Below are positions 29 to 7,370 of a stretch of 64,000 bases of DNA, piece after piece; the first letter of the stretch is position 1; every line of letters starts with the position of its first letter. The notes under the pieces were generated by a model. It was not told the origin of the DNA. It did no database searches and saw only the letters and a list, made by a program, of their open reading frames with translations. The stretch is taken from the IMG/VR virus record IMGVR_UViG_3300020185_000011. One strand, written 5' to 3'. Source of the stretch: a virus. Made by a program: the position numbers and the translations under genes.

Positions 29-1459
29 ATGGCAACAGGTTCACAAAAGGTCAAAACACCAGCAGGTTGGAATTCAACCCAAGGTGCATGGGTAAAGACA
101 GGTTCTTCCACATGGAAAGCAGTCGACCAAATCTATATTAAAACCCCTACTGGATGGAACAATGCATCAGGGCAGACTGCAACTCAAATTCCATATCCGT
201 ACATTGCAAATGGACAACAGCCAAACATAAGGGATGCTCAACAACCATATCCATACATTGCAAATGCACAACAACCAAACATAAGAGATGCACAGCAACC
301 GTATCCATATATTGCTAATGCACAAGAACCAAACATAAGGGATGCACAGCAACCATATCCTTATATAGCGAATGCAAGACAACCTTCTACGTACCAACAT
401 AGGAGTCCGTTTACATATGCAAGACAGGGACAAACACCGTTCACTTATCAACATAGGTCTCCATTTACATATAGAAACCCAGTAAATGGTCAAGAACCTA
501 ATATACGTAATAGTCAAACACCTTTCACTTATAGAAATCCAGTGAATGGACAAGAGCCTAATATTAGAGATGCACGTCAACCTTCTACGTATCAGCATAG
601 AAGTCCATTTACGTACAATCATAGGTCACCATTTACGTACAGTCATAGGTCTCCATTCACATATAGAAGTCCAGTGAATGCTCAAGAACCGAACATTAGA
701 GATGCAAGACAACCTGCTACGTATCAACATAGGTCACCGTTAACATATAGTCATAGGTCTCCGTTTACATATCAGCACAGGTCTCCATTTACATATAGAA
801 GTCCTGTAAGCGCACAGGAACCTAATATTAGAAATGCACGTCAACCTGCTACGTATCAGCACAGGTCACCTTTAACATATAGTCACAGGTCACCATTCAC
901 GTATCAACATAGGTCACCATTTACATATAGAAGTCCTGTATCTGCTCAAGAACCTAATATACGTAATGCAAGACAACCTTCTACGTATCAACATAGAAGT
1001 CCGTTAACATATAGTCATAGGTCACCATATACATACAGTCATAGGTCTCCGTTCACTTACAGAAACCCTGTATCTGCTCAACAACCTAATATACGTTCGG
1101 CACAACAACCTAATATACGTTCGGCACAACAACCGTTTACGTTCCAAAATCCGTTTACTTATCGACAACCAAGTAATGCTAGACAACCGAATAATGCAAG
1201 GAACCCATTTACGTATAGAGTACCGTATATTGCAAATGCTAGACAACCGAATAGTGCAAGGAACCCATTCACTTATAGAGTACCTTACATTGCTAATGCA
1301 AGACAACCGAATAGTGCAAGAAGCCCATTCACTTATAGAGTACCTTACATTGCTAATGCAAGGCAACCTGTTATTTCTCAGTCACCGTTTACATATAGTC
1401 ATAGGTCACCATTCAACTACTACTTTACTGGGGGTGGTGGCAACTTCTGTGAGCCATAA
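29..1459 (+). CDS. Pro-periodic repeat protein A (476 aa), probable virion fibre chain
   Basis: Trp-rich 54-aa N-terminus (WVKTGSSTWK), then 55 Pro-initiated units of 6/8/10 aa (PYPYIANAQQ, PNIRDAQQ, PFTYQHRS, PFTYRS, PVSAQE), ending GGGGNFCEP. Lies upstream of a tail-chaperone-like gene and the neck genes. Confidence 0.75.
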   Translation: MATGSQKVKTPAGWNSTQGAWVKTGSSTWKAVDQIYIKTPTGWNNASGQTATQIPYPYIANGQQPNIRDAQQPYPYIANAQQPNIRDAQQPYPYIANAQEPNIRDAQQPYPYIANARQPSTYQHRSPFTYARQGQTPFTYQHRSPFTYRNPVNGQEPNIRNSQTPFTYRNPVNGQEPNIRDARQPSTYQHRSPFTYNHRSPFTYSHRSPFTYRSPVNAQEPNIRDARQPATYQHRSPLTYSHRSPFTYQHRSPFTYRSPVSAQEPNIRNARQPATYQHRSPLTYSHRSPFTYQHRSPFTYRSPVSAQEPNIRNARQPSTYQHRSPLTYSHRSPYTYSHRSPFTYRNPVSAQQPNIRSAQQPNIRSAQQPFTFQNPFTYRQPSNARQPNNARNPFTYRVPYIANARQPNSARNPFTYRVPYIANARQPNSARSPFTYRVPYIANARQPVISQSPFTYSHRSPFNYYFTGGGGNFCEP

Positions 1460-2752
1460 GCCGATGAAAAACATGACAAGAAATAATATTAAACTAACAG
1501 GAGTTTTAAAGTGCCTATAGGTAATAGACAACAACCTACTATTAAGAACGCACAGCAACCTGTCGCGTCTCAGAATCCGTTCACATATGCAAACAGATAT
1601 CCAGCGAGTGCTCAACAACCTTTTACGTTCCAAGCACCATTTACATATAGTGCAAGATATCCAGCGAGTGCTCAACAACCTTTTACGTTCCAAGCACCAT
1701 TTACATATAGTGCAAGATATCCAGCGAATGGACAGCAACCGTTTACGTTTCAGAATCCGTTTACTTACAGACACCCTATGTCTGCGAGACAACCTAACAA
1801 CGCAAGGAATCCATTTACATACAGTTATAGGTCTCCATTTACGTACAACTATAGGTCACCATTTACATATAGAAGTCCTGTAAATGGTCAAGAACCTAAT
1901 ATACGTTCTGCACAAGAGCCTAATATTAGAAGTCAACAAGAACCTAATATACGTTCTGCACAGACTCCGTTCACTTATCAATATAGAAGTCCGTTCACTT
2001 ATAGAAACCCTGTATCTGCTCAAGAACCTAATATTAGAAACATACAGCAACCTAACATTAGAAGTCAGCAAGAACCTAATATACGTAATAGTCAAACACC
2101 GTTCACTTATCAGCACAGGTCTCCTTTCACTTATAGGAACCCTGTATCTGCACAAGAACCGAACATTAGAGCTGCACAACAACCTAATATTAGAAGTCAA
2201 CAAGAACCTAATATTAGAAACAGTCAAACACCGTTTACGTACAATCACAGGTCTCCATCTACATATAGGAACCCTGTATCTGCTCAAGAACCTAATATAC
2301 GTTCTGCTCAAGAACCTAATATACGTTCTGCACAAGAGCCTAACATTAGGGATGCTCAGACTCCGTTCACTTATCAATATAGAAGTCCGTTCACTTATCA
2401 GAATCCTAGTAATGCACGTCAACCTGCTACATATCAGTACAGGTCACCGTTCACTTATCAGAATCCAGTAAGCGCACAGGAACCTAATATTAGAAATGCA
2501 CAGCAACCGTATCCATACATTGCAGCTGCTCAAGAACCTAATATACGTAATGCACAGACTCCGTTTACTTATCAGAGAACAGGTCAAACACCGTTCACTT
2601 ATCAGCACAGGTCTCCATTCACGTATGCAAGACAGGGTCAAACACCGTTTACGTATCAACATAGAAGTCCGTTCACATATCAAAGAACAGGTCAAACACC
2701 GTTTACGTATCAACACAGAAGTCCATTCACATATGCAAGACAGGGTCAAACC
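191..2752 (+). repeat. Coding modular tandem repeats of 18/24/30 nt units (191-1408 and 1535-2752)
   Basis: Recurrent DNA units such as caagaacctaatatacgt, ccgttcacttat and cataggtcacca, with synonymous variation. Confidence 0.95.
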
Positions 2753-2815
2753 CCCGAAGCAAGATGGGATGGAGTGGTATCACAACAGTGGCCTGCAACC
2801 CCAATTACATCATAG
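1511..2815 (+). CDS. Pro-periodic repeat protein B (434 aa), antiparallel partner of protein A
   Basis: GTG start with AGGAG SD at 1499-1503; 55 Pro-initiated units from the same vocabulary in mirror order; Trp-containing C-terminal tail; followed by a terminator. Confidence 0.75.
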   Translation: MPIGNRQQPTIKNAQQPVASQNPFTYANRYPASAQQPFTFQAPFTYSARYPASAQQPFTFQAPFTYSARYPANGQQPFTFQNPFTYRHPMSARQPNNARNPFTYSYRSPFTYNYRSPFTYRSPVNGQEPNIRSAQEPNIRSQQEPNIRSAQTPFTYQYRSPFTYRNPVSAQEPNIRNIQQPNIRSQQEPNIRNSQTPFTYQHRSPFTYRNPVSAQEPNIRAAQQPNIRSQQEPNIRNSQTPFTYNHRSPSTYRNPVSAQEPNIRSAQEPNIRSAQEPNIRDAQTPFTYQYRSPFTYQNPSNARQPATYQYRSPFTYQNPVSAQEPNIRNAQQPYPYIAAAQEPNIRNAQTPFTYQRTGQTPFTYQHRSPFTYARQGQTPFTYQHRSPFTYQRTGQTPFTYQHRSPFTYARQGQTPEARWDGVVSQQWPATPITS

Positions 2816-2835: not shown

Positions 2836-2862
2836 AAACCCCTCGAAAGAGGGGTTTTTTTT
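2836..2862 (+). terminator. Rho-independent terminator after the repeat gene pair
   Basis: AAACCCCTC-GAAA-GAGGGGTTT hairpin followed by a T-run. Confidence 0.9.
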
Positions 2863-2879: not shown

Positions 2880-4460
2880 ATGAAAAATATAAGCACCCTT
2901 GAAGAAGCAAAAGAGTTAATTATCCCACAAGATTGGGACAAACTAAGAGACCAAGATAGAAGACACATTGGTAATTTCCATCTAGGTTCATTTAATATAG
3001 AACCAGGCTTTAGTAAAACTAGTGAAACATATAAAATTCTAGACTGGTTATTCAAAGAGATTCTTCCACCTGTAAAAATTGCAAAGTGGTCAGACTTTGA
3101 ATACCTAAGAAAGGAAAATAGATTTGGTGGGTTCAATGGTTTGAGAAATGAATCAGTAACCTATCACAAGTTCCTACCAAGAGGTTATGCAGAGAAACCT
3201 AGAAAGGTTATCCCAGGCGTAGCAGGTATGGATATGAAAGATGCTGATGGATATGTCGATATAGACACATTAATCGATTGGGATACCGTTGAAAATAGAG
3301 ACCAAAGTGCAGAAGGGTCATTACTATCGATGTATTATCATGGTGCAAAAGCACATTGGTTAATTCAAAGTATTCAAGAGGAAGGTCTTAGAGCTCCTAT
3401 TCAAGGATATGTTATCAGTCATGGTATTACTGGTAATAATGTAGAACCAACTTATACATTTAGAATACATCCAGGCTCTATTAGGAGTGGTGTGTTTGAA
3501 GAATTGAATGATAATGATATGGAAATTATGGTAATAGATAATTTTGATGTCGTGAAAGTTGAACCATCAAGCCTAGACGATGTGTTAGAAATGTGGTATA
3601 ATAAGTTAACGAGATTAGGTAAAGCATATCATTGTTCATTTACGTATGTTGATGGATGTATTGAATACAATACTGCATTGATGGACTTAGATTTCAGAGA
3701 AGAAGTACATGCATTCAACAAACAAGTCTTTGAACTTGCAAAGGGTAAACCCCTAACAATTTATATTGGACATGATAGTAGGCATGGAGATTTGTCTAAG
3801 TGTTCTAAGTTTGCAATCCTAGAAAGTATTAAAAGTGGATTCGGTAAAGGCTGGATGCACGACCAAGTTAAATGGGAACCCGAAGTCAAGATACTTGACA
3901 TTGCTGAGATTCCCGAGTATACTAGAGAGTATGCTAATCAAAGTACTGAATTTACATACAGTAGATTTCTAATACCTTACCTAGAGAACTATGAAGGGTT
4001 TAGTATCTTCATTGATGATGATTTCATCTTCAACAAAAGCATACTACCTATGTTCTACTATCTAAACCCAAACGATGCTGTTGCATGTATTAAATACCCA
4101 CAATACGAACATGATGCAACCAAGTTTGACGGTGAAGTTAATATCGATTATCCAAAGAAGCTGTGGTCTAGTATGATGGTGTTCAACAACGGACATGAAG
4201 ACTGTAAGAAGTTAACACCCGAAGTTGTCAACACATGGACAGGAAAACAGTTACATCAATTCGAATGGACTGATAAGATTTCACCTATACCCGAACACTA
4301 TATCTTTGTGGAAGGGTATGATAATCACGAAGAAAAGTATAATTATAGTGGTATTCACTATACTCGTGGTGGCCCATGGGTAAAAGGCATGGATTATTCT
4401 ACCATAAATAATCTTGAAGACTTTTTAAAAGTGAAAAGAAAGTTGCCAATTGGCGATTAG
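2880..4460 (+). CDS. Glycosyltransferase (GT-A, GT8/CDI-like C-terminal domain) fused to an N-terminal domain with ParB/Srx-like motif
   Basis: IYIGHDSR, STEFTYSRF, DDD (DxD), WSSMMVFN, HYTRGGPW motifs; N-terminal LIQSIQEEGLRAPI...IHPGSIR. True start is taken as ATG 2880, after the terminator and the TAAATA box at 2869-2874. Confidence 0.75.
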   Translation: MKNISTLEEAKELIIPQDWDKLRDQDRRHIGNFHLGSFNIEPGFSKTSETYKILDWLFKEILPPVKIAKWSDFEYLRKENRFGGFNGLRNESVTYHKFLPRGYAEKPRKVIPGVAGMDMKDADGYVDIDTLIDWDTVENRDQSAEGSLLSMYYHGAKAHWLIQSIQEEGLRAPIQGYVISHGITGNNVEPTYTFRIHPGSIRSGVFEELNDNDMEIMVIDNFDVVKVEPSSLDDVLEMWYNKLTRLGKAYHCSFTYVDGCIEYNTALMDLDFREEVHAFNKQVFELAKGKPLTIYIGHDSRHGDLSKCSKFAILESIKSGFGKGWMHDQVKWEPEVKILDIAEIPEYTREYANQSTEFTYSRFLIPYLENYEGFSIFIDDDFIFNKSILPMFYYLNPNDAVACIKYPQYEHDATKFDGEVNIDYPKKLWSSMMVFNNGHEDCKKLTPEVVNTWTGKQLHQFEWTDKISPIPEHYIFVEGYDNHEEKYNYSGIHYTRGGPWVKGMDYSTINNLEDFLKVKRKLPIGD

Positions 4461-4471
4461 TATGTTATAAT
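4443..4471 (+). promoter_or_regulatory. sigma70-type promoter with extended -10
   Basis: TTGCCA-N17-TATAAT with TG at -15/-14. Confidence 0.6.
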
Positions 4472-4491
4472 AGTAACGAGGAACTATAATT

Positions 4492-5049
4492 ATGAATGCA
4501 TTTATATACGACAGTGATGGTACAATTTTTGTCCGTAAACCAAACGGACTGGAATACAACTATGAGAATGTCGACAAACCTGCTTTTGATTTTGAATATG
4601 ATGTTGTCATCTATGATGATATCGAAGTAAAGATTGAGAAGTGGGAAGACGGTCTAAACTTTGACCAACAACAAAAAGTTGCACTTTCAAGAGAAGAGTG
4701 TGAAATTATTGAACAATACATTGAGAATAGTGAACCACCTATGGGTCATAGTCTCAATAGTCAAATCGTTGACAGTCTCTATAGAACTACAGATAAATAT
4801 GTTGACGAAGAGTGTAGACAATACAGATTCAAAGACTTGAATGAAGCAATGTATGCTGGTAGAGAAGGTTCATCCCATCCCCATAGAAACAATGCAAGAA
4901 GAGCTCTTGAATATGCAGACGCAATCAATTGTGTTCTTGCACAACTTGTAGACGAAGTCCAACAAACTAGAGAAGATTTCTTAAAGGACTATGACGCTTA
5001 TCAGAGTGAACTACCAAGTCCATACGTACCCGAAGATACCAGAGCTTAA
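4492..5049 (+). CDS. Putative tail fibre assembly chaperone-like protein
   Basis: C-terminal pattern (YVDEECRQYRFKDLNEAMYAG...ARRALEYADAI...ELPSP) resembles phage tail-fibre chaperone proteins; adjacent to fibre-like genes. Confidence 0.45.
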   Translation: MNAFIYDSDGTIFVRKPNGLEYNYENVDKPAFDFEYDVVIYDDIEVKIEKWEDGLNFDQQQKVALSREECEIIEQYIENSEPPMGHSLNSQIVDSLYRTTDKYVDEECRQYRFKDLNEAMYAGREGSSHPHRNNARRALEYADAINCVLAQLVDEVQQTREDFLKDYDAYQSELPSPYVPEDTRA

Positions 5050-5052
5050 GTA

Positions 5053-5757
5053 ATGTTCGAAAATGTTGAGTTAGAGTTCATCAAGGAACCCTTTCATATC
5101 AAAGATATGCCTTTGAAAAATATGTATATCCTTGATGACTATCTATCTCCAACATTACATCATGCAATAGACGAACAGATAGTTCGAAAGTCTTACTGGG
5201 CAAAGACCAACCAAGTGAATTCAAACTCACCTACAGGATTACCGCACCATAGTTTTTGGGGTGCTGGGTTTTTCAGAGGAGAGAATCAAGAAATAGAACA
5301 CGGTATGGAACCTAAAGACACATACTTAATGGGATGGTTCAATAGAAAGCTACAAACTGATTTTGGTTTTATGTGGGAAAGGTTTCAATACTTTGGATTG
5401 AACTCACAAACTCAAGGATTGGAAGGAACCACACATTCAGATTGTGATATGGAAGATGATTGGAATCTATCATTCTTATATTATCCAAATAGATTTTGGA
5501 ATGATTCATGGGGTGGGTCTTTACGATTGTATGATGAACCACAACAAGGAATCCATGGAAGAGCAGACCACATTAAAAATCATCAAACACAAGAAATATA
5601 TTTTAAACCAAATAGATTGTTGATATTTGACGGAAGAATACCACATGGTGCAGATGCACCATCTCCAAAGGCACGATATATGGATAGACGTTCTTTGGTA
5701 ATAAGAGGAGACGAAATTAGTATAAGAACTTTATGGGGTGAAGATGCCTACGATTGA
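5053..5757 (+). CDS. 2OG-Fe(II) oxygenase, prolyl-hydroxylase-like
   Basis: HxD (HSD), WGGSL, distal H (PHGA) and R motifs. Confidence 0.8.
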   Translation: MFENVELEFIKEPFHIKDMPLKNMYILDDYLSPTLHHAIDEQIVRKSYWAKTNQVNSNSPTGLPHHSFWGAGFFRGENQEIEHGMEPKDTYLMGWFNRKLQTDFGFMWERFQYFGLNSQTQGLEGTTHSDCDMEDDWNLSFLYYPNRFWNDSWGGSLRLYDEPQQGIHGRADHIKNHQTQEIYFKPNRLLIFDGRIPHGADAPSPKARYMDRRSLVIRGDEISIRTLWGEDAYD

Positions 5758-6670
5758 ATTCACAACTTACGATAAGAGAACCACAGAGTTATGGAGACCT
5801 GTTTTAGCTAAAAAGGTTGTTCCCGATTGGTGGAAGACCATGAAAGTTCAAGAGATGGTTCGTGGGAATAAGACTCAAACTATTAGGTCATGTCCAGCAA
5901 TGGACGACTGGTTAAAGAGTGGTTGGTACATATGTGCAAAAACAGATATGCAAGTAAAGGTAAATGAAGACGGTAGGTCAATGACAGACCCAAACAATCC
6001 CCTTCATTCTCCAACTCATCCAGCTGCACAAGGTGGTCATAACTTTACCTACCTACCCAAAGAGGATGCACCCACTAAAGATGCATTTAAAATGAGAGCT
6101 CCTTGGAATATTATTACACCACCAGGCTATTCATGTCTATATCTAGACCCCTTTCTATTTCAGAATACTCATTTTGCAACATGGCAGGGAATCATCGATA
6201 CAGATACATTCAATGTGAATATGGATAATTCTCAGATTATATTCTATCCTAAAACGAATAAGGACTTTGTAATCAAAGAGGGTACACCACTAGTACAGGT
6301 CGTTCCTTACAGAAGAGAAGTGTGGAATGCATCCTATATAACTTATGATAATAAATCATGGCAAGAGAATCGTTCTGTAAGAACTACACATAGAGTAGGA
6401 GAGGACGGTGAGAAACTCAAGACCATGGACGAATGGAATAGGTCACCCGAACTCAGAGAAGAGAAGAGACACATAGAAGGAATGGCTGGTGCATACAGAA
6501 GAATTAAATATTGGAATGAAAAGGGAAGGATGTTCAAAGAAGATAATCCACCACCCGAATGTCCTATGCACAACCCCGATGTAAATGACGAGGTAGAGAT
6601 GGAAAGGGATTATAAAAAAGAACAATTGAAACAAACTGATTTGAATTGGGATGGTCAAGATGACAGTTAG
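5744..6670 (+). CDS. Conserved T4-like phage protein (DUF6065-like), often found beside oxygenases
   Basis: PDWWK, CPAMDDWLKSGW, PWNIITPPGYSCL, GIIDTD, GTPLVQVVP motifs. Confidence 0.55.
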   Translation: MPTIEFTTYDKRTTELWRPVLAKKVVPDWWKTMKVQEMVRGNKTQTIRSCPAMDDWLKSGWYICAKTDMQVKVNEDGRSMTDPNNPLHSPTHPAAQGGHNFTYLPKEDAPTKDAFKMRAPWNIITPPGYSCLYLDPFLFQNTHFATWQGIIDTDTFNVNMDNSQIIFYPKTNKDFVIKEGTPLVQVVPYRREVWNASYITYDNKSWQENRSVRTTHRVGEDGEKLKTMDEWNRSPELREEKRHIEGMAGAYRRIKYWNEKGRMFKEDNPPPECPMHNPDVNDEVEMERDYKKEQLKQTDLNWDGQDDS

Positions 6671-7370
6671 ATTAGCATTCCCTACTGCTATATTTGAAAG
6701 AGATTTACTTGACAAAGAAAAGTATGGTAACGATGCTGTTACAATTGAATACATCGATTCTCTTAGAAATGAAATGGATGCATGGAGACAAAGAGACCCG
6801 AAGGGAAGGCAGATTTCAAATAGATATACTGGTTGGCAGTCGGAAGATGGTATAGAACAACATCCAAGTTTTGCAAAGATTATAAGATGTATTGAAGCTG
6901 CATTGAGAGAAGAGGTGCAGACATTCTTTGGAGTAAATCCAAATGCAGCCCAAATTAAAATAGACAACACATGGGCAAACATAAATGATAAAGGTGCGTG
7001 GAACACACCACACTTACATAATGGTTGTTGGTATAGTGGAGTATGTTATATACATGGTGACGGTGACGAGGGAGACCTCAATATGATTAATACCGATGCT
7101 AAAGTAGTTGCAGACCACCCATCTTTGCAACGACACCAAGAGAGTATTCAGTACCAACCTAAAACTGGAAGACTCATATTGTTTCCTAGTGGTGCAATGC
7201 ATATGGTAGAACCCAATCCCACAGACAAAGATAGATACTCAATCTCTTTCAATTGTAGAGTACAATACATTGGTAATCCCTCAGATGCAAGAAAACCGTG
7301 GAGAAACCCACCGCCTGAAGATGAATTTACTTTTGAATTAGATTCAAATGGCGACCCCATAATCAACTAG
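6660..7370 (+). CDS. 2OG-Fe(II) oxygenase (TIGR02466-like)
   Basis: WANIN, HLH, SGVCY, GRLILFPS, HMVEPN, RYSISFN. Confidence 0.8.
   Translation: MTVRLAFPTAIFERDLLDKEKYGNDAVTIEYIDSLRNEMDAWRQRDPKGRQISNRYTGWQSEDGIEQHPSFAKIIRCIEAALREEVQTFFGVNPNAAQIKIDNTWANINDKGAWNTPHLHNGCWYSGVCYIHGDGDEGDLNMINTDAKVVADHPSLQRHQESIQYQPKTGRLILFPSGAMHMVEPNPTDKDRYSISFNCRVQYIGNPSDARKPWRNPPPEDEFTFELDSNGDPIIN

What the first reader, a model, noticed from the sequence alone, without database searches (positions are those of the whole stretch)
29..2815. Two adjacent proteins that are reverse complements of each other at the amino-acid level: a protein duplex with a pairing code
Seen: cutting both proteins at the periodic prolines gives exactly 55 units and 406 aa in each (A: aa 55-460; B: aa 9-414). 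Unit lengths in A run 10,8,10,8,10,8,10,8,10,8,6,6,8,6,6,(8,8,8,8,6,6)x4,8,8,6,6,6,6,6,8,6,6,8,6,6,8,6,8, and B read from C- to N-terminus gives the identical series (55/55). Opposed units are complementary rather than identical. A P-x-T-[YF] unit faces a non-TY unit of the same length in 54/55 pairs: PFTYQHRS with PNIRxAQx, PFTYRx with PVSAQE/PVNGQE, PFTYARQGQT with PYPYIANAQQ. Where A has 1 NIR + 3 TY units, B has 3 NIR + 1 TY. The single exception is PVISQS opposite PVASQN. The DNA of the two genes is not an inverted repeat, so the symmetry is at protein level. Inference: A and B form an in-register antiparallel beta-zipper heterodimer, or a higher-order bundle of such pairs. 406 residues at about 0.33 nm each would be roughly 135 nm, tail-fibre scale. 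The irregular barcode would enforce register and length. I do not know of a described system like this.
Basis: partly seen in the sequence, partly recalled or inferred. Interest (0 to 1): 0.97.

Follow-up and report, generated by a model that had tools for sequence, protein, structure and literature searches.

The report
Two phage proteins with mirror-complementary repeats
Two neighbouring genes of an uncultured marine T4-like phage encode long repeat proteins in which one, read backwards, is the unit-by-unit complement of the other; about 45 different natural versions keep this rule, so the two chains most likely zip together antiparallel into a long thin fibre, a design I could not find described.

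Summary
A (29-1459) and B (1511-2815) each hold 55 proline-started units, 406 aa in all. A's unit lengths equal B's reversed in 55 of 55 positions. A P-x-T-[YF] unit faces a unit of the other class in 54 of 55.

It is not a DNA palindrome: reverse-complement identity is at most 38.5% in any locus. Both frames evolve as real genes, with changes mostly at third codon positions.

In 78 related metagenome loci (45 distinct barcodes, 26-67 mirrored units), each B is the reversed complement of its own A. There are 1,967 same-length unit pairs, 92% of opposite class, and only 11 T/T. The cognate partner scores best for 41 of 45. The five unmatched variants are all singletons.

99.8% of Pro-Pro spacings are even, which points to beta-strand geometry. 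Conserved ends (A head, B tail) would lie together, and so would the variable ends.

The same genome carries a second pair (C/D) with a different barcode that does not match A or B.

The genes sit in the tail-fibre/host-recognition block. Complex prediction gave no verdict, so physical binding is inferred and not shown.

I found no published description. Unverified notes of this scan report single-chain fold-back fibres with other sequences on other DNA.

The parts
29..1459 (+). Gene A, 476 aa (ATG start)
   Evidence: ORF. Differences from relatives are mostly at third codon positions (3/3/38 against L001). More than 450 homologs.
29..190 (+). A head, aa 1-54. Conserved Trp-rich domain with two K-T-P-x-G-W-N motifs; proposed anchor end.
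   Evidence: About 30 invariant columns in 42 sequences. AF2 gives only weak short strands, pLDDT about 50.
191..1408 (+). A array, aa 55-460: 55 Pro-started units of 6, 8 or 10 aa
1409..1456 (+). A tail PFNYYFTGGGGNFCEP. It is a Gly-run followed by Cys, the position where many homologs carry a Hint/intein-like domain.
1460..1510 (+). 51-nt spacer with an AGGAG ribosome-binding site about 8 nt before B's GTG start
   Evidence: Sequence. The piece 1333-1624 is identical in four runs.
1511..2815 (+). Gene B, 434 aa (GTG start; homologs begin MPIG.. at the same place)
1535..2752 (+). B array, aa 9-414: 55 units, the reversed complement of A's array
2753..2812 (+). B tail, 20 aa, conserved (P-x-x-R-W-D-G ... 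W-P-x-T-P-I-[ST]-S). It would lie next to A's head in the antiparallel pairing.
2839..2862 (+). Terminator-like hairpin (CCCCTC GAAA GAGGGG plus T8) just after B, closing an A-B unit
   Evidence: Read directly from the sequence; not tested further.
2880..7370 (+). Conserved downstream genes: a GT-A-like glycosyltransferase (2880-4460), an ORF (4492-5049), a 2OG-Fe(II) oxygenase PF13640 (5053-5757), an ORF (5738-6670) and a 2OG-Fe(II) oxygenase PF13759 (6651-7370). Possible modifiers of the fibre.
   Evidence: Present downstream of B in 41-44 of 44 loci; family hits. The functional link is inference only.

Best explanation
A and B are two structural proteins that assemble with each other along their whole repeat arrays, antiparallel and in register, into a long thin beta-type fibre. 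It may be a two-chain ribbon or a bundle of such pairs. Each unit pair holds one T unit (P-F-T-Y plus a spacer QHRS, RN or ARQGQT) and one non-T unit (a spacer NIRx, V[SN] or YPYIAN plus [NS]-[AG]-[QR]-x). The conserved PFTY head of one chain therefore always lies against the conserved NAQx(P) end of the other, and the spacers match in length. Which chain carries the T unit, together with the unit length (6, 8 or 10), forms a barcode. That barcode allows only one partner and one register. The conserved ends (A head plus B tail) lie together and probably dock on the virion. The variable ends (A tail, which in relatives is a self-cleaving Hint domain or a beta-sandwich domain, plus B's N-terminus) form the far tip. 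Shown here: the sequence rule, its covariation, and the gene context. Inferred: physical pairing, beta structure, Pro facing Pro, and the role as a virion fibre.
For: The mirror rule is exact in the window and far beyond shuffles. It holds in 51 distinct homologous pairs: 1,967 same-length unit pairs, of which 1,804 are of opposite class, 152 nonT/nonT and 11 T/T; 24 pairs have no gap or mismatch. Barcodes differ greatly between lineages, yet each matches its own partner. The cognate partner is best in 41 of 45 rows, with mean score 61 against 20. From L039 to L045, A gains 10T+8T and B gains 10.+8. at the mirrored place. Fourteen barcodes recur in 2-8 independent contigs, while the five unmatched variants are singletons. 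There is no DNA complementarity that could copy changes across (maximum 38.5%), and both frames are under purifying selection. 3,961 of 3,969 Pro-Pro spacings are even. PFTY always lies opposite [NS][AG][QR]x. Covariation sits on same-face (even) positions, with the top cells at i+j-L=2 in three of four unit classes. A second pair, C/D, in the same genome and in three other genomes obeys the rule, and cross-pair scores are low. The genes lie among tail-fibre, baseplate and fibre-chaperone-like genes, upstream of gp13/14/15. A alone gets no confident fold.
Against: There is no direct evidence that the proteins bind or are in the virion. Both arrays are strongly basic (+37 and +27), which would oppose simple pairing unless it is offset by modification, counter-ions or a third partner. 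Five loci show unmatched block insertions or deletions, so either mismatches are tolerated or those assemblies are wrong. Part of the residue covariation could arise from rules within each chain at places where the T-carrying strand switches. The register cannot be fixed from sequence alone. The length of the upstream fibre protein E also tracks array length (r=0.76), which leaves room for a third component.
Confidence: 0.68

Rival explanations
1. A and B do not touch each other directly. Both lie antiparallel on a shared third component, for example the shaft of the fibre-like protein E encoded just upstream, and the complementarity reflects packing around that scaffold.
For: A paralogous fibre-like gene precedes each pair: E before A and F before C. 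E is present in 43 of 44 loci. E's length (462-963 aa) correlates with array length, r=0.76.
Against: The correlation is not corrected for shared ancestry and is loose within the window's own clade. A scaffold does not readily explain a strict unit-for-unit class complement between A and B, with T almost never opposite T. E has no matching barcode that I could see.
Confidence: 0.12
2. The mirror is a relic or product of a DNA-level process: an ancient inverted duplication read on the antisense strand, or hairpin-templated repair. No protein pairing is involved.
For: The best of all offsets between A and the reverse complement of B is near the mirror axis (+3, 36.6% against a mean of 25%).
Against: That signal is mostly Arg AGR lying opposite Pro CCT. 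Second codon positions, which must be complementary in true antisense pairs, are at chance (27.7%). No locus exceeds 38.5% and no inverted repeat is found. Both genes have the same C>G skew. Without DNA complementarity nothing could copy insertions or deletions across, yet they are matched.
Confidence: 0.03
3. A and B each form separate homo-oligomeric fibres, and their arrays are matched for another reason, for example both being measured against one ruler or spaced to fit each other side by side only at their ends.
For: Phage fibres are usually homotrimers (general knowledge). Neither AF2 nor the complex tool produced any model of a pair.
Against: A ruler would constrain total length, not the order and class of every unit. 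A against reversed A, and B against reversed B, score only 58 against 110 for A/B. Parallel homo-oligomers would put T units opposite T units, which the family avoids between the two chains.
Confidence: 0.07

Closest known systems
Needle domain of the T4 long tail fibre tip, gp37 (PDB 2XGF; Bartual et al. 2010, recalled from my own knowledge; the entry and its iron-binding needle are described in PMC6957217)
   Same: A phage fibre segment built from long antiparallel beta strands that run out and back, so residues of the outward and returning strands face each other along the fibre.
   Different: In gp37 both strands belong to one chain of a homotrimer, the stretch is tens of residues long, and His-x-His motifs hold iron. 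Here the two strands are separate gene products about 400 residues long, there are no HxH motifs, the units are Pro-punctuated and follow a two-class pairing rule, and there is no detectable sequence relation.
Heterospecific coiled coils and heterotrimeric collagens (sequence-coded partner and register choice in fibrous proteins; general knowledge)
   Same: Partner and register of long fibrous chains are set by a periodic sequence code.
   Different: Those use heptad or Gly-X-Y periodicity and mostly parallel chains. Here Pro occurs every 6-10 residues, all spacings are even, Gly is rare, the chains are antiparallel, and the code works at the level of whole units of three lengths and two orientations.
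Single-chain fold-back, self-complementary fibre proteins noted by this scan in other uncultured marine T4-like phages (e1-5667934, e1-5618216, e1-5353597, e1-5359728; AI notes, not checked by me)
   Same: A mirror-complementary repeat code in a fibre-module protein of marine T4-like phages, with matched insertions in relatives.
   Different: Those are one chain folding on itself, with other sequences and codes; no look-alike of A or B was found among them. Here the two arms are separate genes. I found no fused form, and long profile hits were unrelated.
Bacterial intein-like (BIL)/Hint autoprocessing domains
   Same: Many A homologs end in a Gly-run, then Cys, then a roughly 140-aa domain ending in His-Asn. 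It gives Hint/intein Pfam hits and matches a DnaB mini-intein.
   Different: The window's A lacks the domain; only Cys-Glu-Pro remains. The Pfam scores are below the curated cut-offs. The residue after His-Asn is not Cys/Ser/Thr in the examples seen, so cleavage is more likely than splicing (inference).

Membership tests
T4 gp37-type fold-back beta needle | Both antiparallel arms lie in one polypeptide | tested here: not met
   A and B are separate ORFs with a stop codon, a 51-nt spacer, and B's own ribosome-binding site and start. The junction is reproduced in four runs. Reading frames differ between loci. No fused form was found.
T4 gp37-type fold-back beta needle | His-x-His motifs that coordinate iron along the core | tested here: not met
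   His occurs only singly, in ..QHRS/..NHRS units; I saw no HxH in either protein by eye in the unit lists.
T4 gp37-type fold-back beta needle | Sequence or profile similarity | tested here: inconclusive
   There is no Pfam or PHROG tail-fibre hit for A or B. Low-complexity sequence limits such searches.
Hint / intein-like domain (tail of A) | N-terminal Cys after the cleavage site, C-terminal His-Asn, Hint fold | tested here: not met
   In the window's A, only Cys-Glu-Pro follows the Gly-run. In homologs (L018, L025, L040, L070) the domain is present, with sub-threshold Pfam hits (E 2e-7 to 2e-4) and a PDB intein match (E 2.4e-4).
Collagen-like triple helix | Gly at every third residue | tested here: not met
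   Gly is not among the 12 commonest residues of either array. Pro spacings are 99.8% even, and only 32% are multiples of 3.
Coiled coil | Heptad periodicity in Pro-poor helices | tested here: not met
   Pro makes up 14% of residues and recurs every 6-10 residues.
Cementoin repeat (PF10511, trappin transglutaminase substrate) | GQDPVK-type hexapeptides with Gln and Lys, attached to a WAP domain | tested here: not met
   Whole-protein scores are 21.6 (A) and 29.5 (B) against a cut-off of 27. For B no single stretch passes on its own; for A one stretch (aa 151-177) does. Lys is absent from A's array. There is no WAP domain. The match reflects the PV[SN][AG]QE units.
Phage tail or neck fibre (generic) | Encoded in the structural fibre module; elongated repeat protein with a conserved attachment end and a variable tip | tested here: inconclusive
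   The context is met: baseplate wedge, tail-fibre-like E and F, a fibre-assembly-chaperone-like gene, and gp13/14/15 downstream. The end pattern is met. Presence in virions cannot be tested here.

The most novel reading that the evidence does not exclude
This is a natural protein duplex with a modular pairing code. Six kinds of unit pair (three lengths, each in two orientations) specify partner and register between two antiparallel chains, much as base pairs do in nucleic acids. The code lets one virion build at least two orthogonal fibres (A/B and C/D), and it evolves by compensatory insertions in two separate genes. In relatives, the Hint domain at A's C-terminus may even join A covalently to B's adjacent N-terminus and so close the hairpin; this last idea is pure speculation.
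Probability: 0.55. Interest if true: 0.95.

Novelty: categorically new. Interest (0 to 1): 0.9.

Why it matters
If the pairing is real, it is a new way for proteins to recognise each other. It would be a readable, modular code for beta strands that fixes partner, orientation and register over hundreds of residues. Coiled coils offer this for helices, but nothing comparable is known in nature for beta structure. It would explain how very long thin fibres assemble in register in abundant marine phages related to those of SAR11 and OM43. It would also give a natural example of compensatory evolution between two genes at the level of whole repeat units, and supply parts for programmable protein fibres. 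The claim is directly testable with two small recombinant proteins and built-in specificity controls (A/B against C/D).

Tried and rejected
- **Complex prediction.** A 1-144 with B 325-434, using family alignments, gave no verdict (ipSAE 0.00 and 0.05). This is evidence neither for nor against binding.
- **AF2 of A 1-144 alone.** pLDDT 40, no usable model.
- **AF2 of the 221-aa distal domain of C.** An all-beta sandwich (pLDDT 68, pTM 0.72). Foldseek against the PDB found nothing at E<=0.001. VIA wide gave a best Z of 4.7 (CfaE adhesin), which is not significant. No fold or function is claimed.
- **DNA palindrome or antisense origin.** Rejected.
- **Fused single-chain forms.** None among proteins of 834-2380 aa (weak evidence). 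Long hits of the profile search were unrelated low-complexity proteins without T units.
- **The genome's 2,271-aa protein.** An ordinary multidomain protein, DUF4815-like in relatives, not a fold-back repeat.
- **GenBank phage collection.** A's head has no match. Array hits in Pseudomonas phage YA3 and Vibrio phage F23s1 lie in unrelated early or regulatory regions and were dropped.
- **Short-read contigs.** They break up inside the arrays, so they cannot verify array lengths. RNA-library contigs hold the sequence, but that does not prove transcription.
- **Crude array-span correlation.** A against B gave r=0.87 but was noisy, because motifs also match in tail domains and some contigs are truncated. 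The unit-level alignments are used instead.
- **Literature.** No paper holds the motifs FTYQHRS, PYPYIAN or PVSAQE. Searches for antiparallel or two-protein fibres found nothing alike. The two-protein fibre of phage A1002 is a serial chain of globular dimers.

Full report
**What is there.** Window 29-1459 encodes A (476 aa) and 1511-2815 encodes B (434 aa). Both are on the + strand, 51 nt apart. B starts at a GTG preceded by AGGAG, and a terminator-like hairpin follows B.

Cutting at Pro, with PY merged into the next unit, gives 55 units and 406 aa in each protein. A's length series equals B's reversed in 55 of 55 positions, against 17 of 55 in forward order. P-x-T-[YF] ('T') units face non-T units in 54 of 55 pairs. 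Two thousand shuffles of B's unit order never exceed a mirror score of 24, against 108 observed.

**Not a DNA effect, and both genes are real.**
- No inverted repeat is present.
- The best ungapped identity of A to the reverse complement of B is 36.6%, at offset +3. It comes mainly from Arg AGR codons opposite Pro CCT codons. Second codon positions are at chance.
- Across 45 loci the maximum is 38.5%.
- Differences between relatives fall on third codon positions (for example 3/3/38 in A and 11/9/29 in B), so these frames are translated and under purifying selection.
- The A-stop/B-start piece is identical in contigs of four runs from three studies.

**The family.** A has more than 450 homologs, all unnamed marine metagenome proteins. 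An exhaustive profile search finds only 144 clusters among 1.84 billion representatives.

IMG/VR gave 78 loci, and 76 of the 79 sources examined (those loci plus the window) carry two tandem arrays on one strand. The architecture is as follows:
- A has a conserved 54-aa head, the array, and a variable tail. The tail is a short Gly/aromatic stretch ending ..EP, or a Gly-run plus Cys plus a Hint/intein-like domain ending His-Asn, or another domain of about 150 aa.
- B has a short head (MPIG..), the array, and a conserved 20-aa tail.

**The decisive test.**
- In 51 distinct pairs, aligning A's units to B's reversed gives 1,967 same-length unit pairs. Of these, 1,804 (92%) are T against non-T, 152 are non-T/non-T, and only 11 are T/T. 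Twenty-four pairs have no gap or mismatch.
- Reverse Pro-position coincidence covers nearly all of B's prolines in almost every pair.
- Barcodes differ widely between lineages (26-67 mirrored units), but each B mirrors its own A.
- Among 45 distinct barcodes, the cognate partner is best in 41 rows, with a mean score of 61 against 20.
- L039 to L045 shows a matched event: A gains 10T+8T and B gains 10.+8. at the mirrored place.
- Fourteen barcodes recur in 2-8 independent contigs. The five loci with unmatched block insertions or deletions (L007, L009, L015, L041, L047) are all singletons, so they are either assembly errors or rare intermediates.

**The code and the geometry.**
- T units are P-F-T-Y plus a spacer (QHRS, RN or ARQGQT).
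- Non-T units are a spacer (NIRx, V[SN], YPYIAN or YIAN) plus [NS]-[AG]-[QR]-x.
- In the mirror, PFTY therefore always lies against NAQx(P), and the spacers match in length.
- 3,961 of 3,969 Pro-Pro spacings are even, including those where a Pro has been lost. That fits the two-residue repeat of beta strands, and fits neither PPII nor coiled coils.
- Covariation between opposed units concentrates on even positions. Within fixed unit classes, the strongest cell is at i+j-L=2 in three of four classes. This puts Pro opposite Pro, Tyr opposite Ala/Gly (78%) and Thr opposite Gln/Arg (99%).
- Part of this covariation may follow from rules within each chain at strand-switch points, so I treat the register as favoured and not proven.

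**A second pair and orthogonality.** About 8-10 kb upstream, the same genome encodes C (572 aa) and D (389 aa). These follow the same rule with another barcode: 39 of D's 44 prolines coincide in reverse, against 21 forward. Cross-pair scores are 31-41, against 110 for A/B. C/D pairs in three other genomes behave alike.

**Context.**
- The phage is T4-like. Its major head protein is 64-68% identical to those of OM43 phage Melnitz and Pelagibacter phages HTVC008M and Mosig.
- The pairs lie in the fibre and host-recognition block, between the giant DUF4815-type protein and gp13/14/15. Around them are tail-fibre-like proteins and a fibre-assembly-chaperone-like gene.
- A fibre-like gene precedes each pair: E before A and F before C.
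- E upstream, and a glycosyltransferase plus two 2OG oxygenases downstream, are conserved in 41-44 of 44 loci.
- E's length correlates with array length (r=0.76, not corrected for ancestry).

**Reading.** The simplest account of a strict, covarying, reversed complement between two separately encoded chains, with no DNA complementarity to transmit changes, is that the chains pair antiparallel and in register. They would form a beta-type fibre, fully extended to roughly 130 nm here, with the conserved ends together and the variable ends together. The barcode would enforce partner and register, and would keep the A/B and C/D fibres apart.

Physical binding is not shown, and prediction tools gave no usable model. 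The strong positive charge of both arrays (+37 and +27) and the E-length correlation leave room for a third component or for modification.

**Novelty.** I found no description of such a system. The nearest structural precedent is the out-and-back beta needle of T4 gp37, which lies within one chain and is built differently. Unverified notes of this scan report single-chain fold-back fibres with other sequences in other marine T4-like phages. The present case would be a two-gene form of that principle.

Noticed in passing
L079:7225-10112 (minus strand; about 8.4-10.1 kb upstream of the window start in the same genome): A second mirror-complementary pair, C (572 aa, with a 221-aa beta-sandwich distal domain and a Gly-run end) and D (389 aa, with a C-terminal V-x-N-D-N-G-T-x-R-K double motif). 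Its barcode is different and does not match A or B.
   Followed up: yes
L079:53-2380 and L079:10114-11724 (minus strand): Each pair is preceded by a paralogous Gly/Thr/Ser-rich fibre-like protein: E (775 aa) and F (536 aa), 22% identical. E's length (462-963 aa) correlates with the A/B array length across 34 loci (r=0.76, not corrected for phylogeny).
   Followed up: partly
window 2880-7370: A glycosyltransferase-like gene and two 2OG-Fe(II) oxygenases (one of the prolyl-hydroxylase-type family PF13640) follow the pair in 41-44 of 44 loci. They might hydroxylate and glycosylate the Pro/Thr/Tyr/Asn-rich arrays. No evidence beyond synteny.
   Followed up: partly
L018:7555-8100, also L025, L033, L037, L038, L040, L070: In many relatives A ends in a Gly-run, then Cys, then a Hint/intein-like domain ending His-Asn followed by about 4-15 residues. 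It matches DnaB mini-intein 4O1R (E 2.4e-4). The residue after His-Asn is not Cys/Ser/Thr, which suggests self-cleavage at the fibre tip rather than splicing. In L018 the residues after the domain (..LPIGQK) resemble the MPIG.. start of B in the window.
   Followed up: partly
window 191-1408 and 1535-2752: Both arrays are strongly basic (net +37 and +27) and lack Cys and Trp. A's array also lacks Lys. The single Cys of the pair sits in A's tail.
   Followed up: no
window 2839-2862: A strong terminator-like hairpin with a T8 run lies directly after B, separating the A-B unit from the glycosyltransferase gene.
   Followed up: no
window 29-190; P0242 (1295 aa): The head motif of A (G-W..[IV]K..Y[IV]KT repeated) also opens an unrelated 1,295-aa metagenomic protein, so it may be a more general attachment module.
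   Followed up: no
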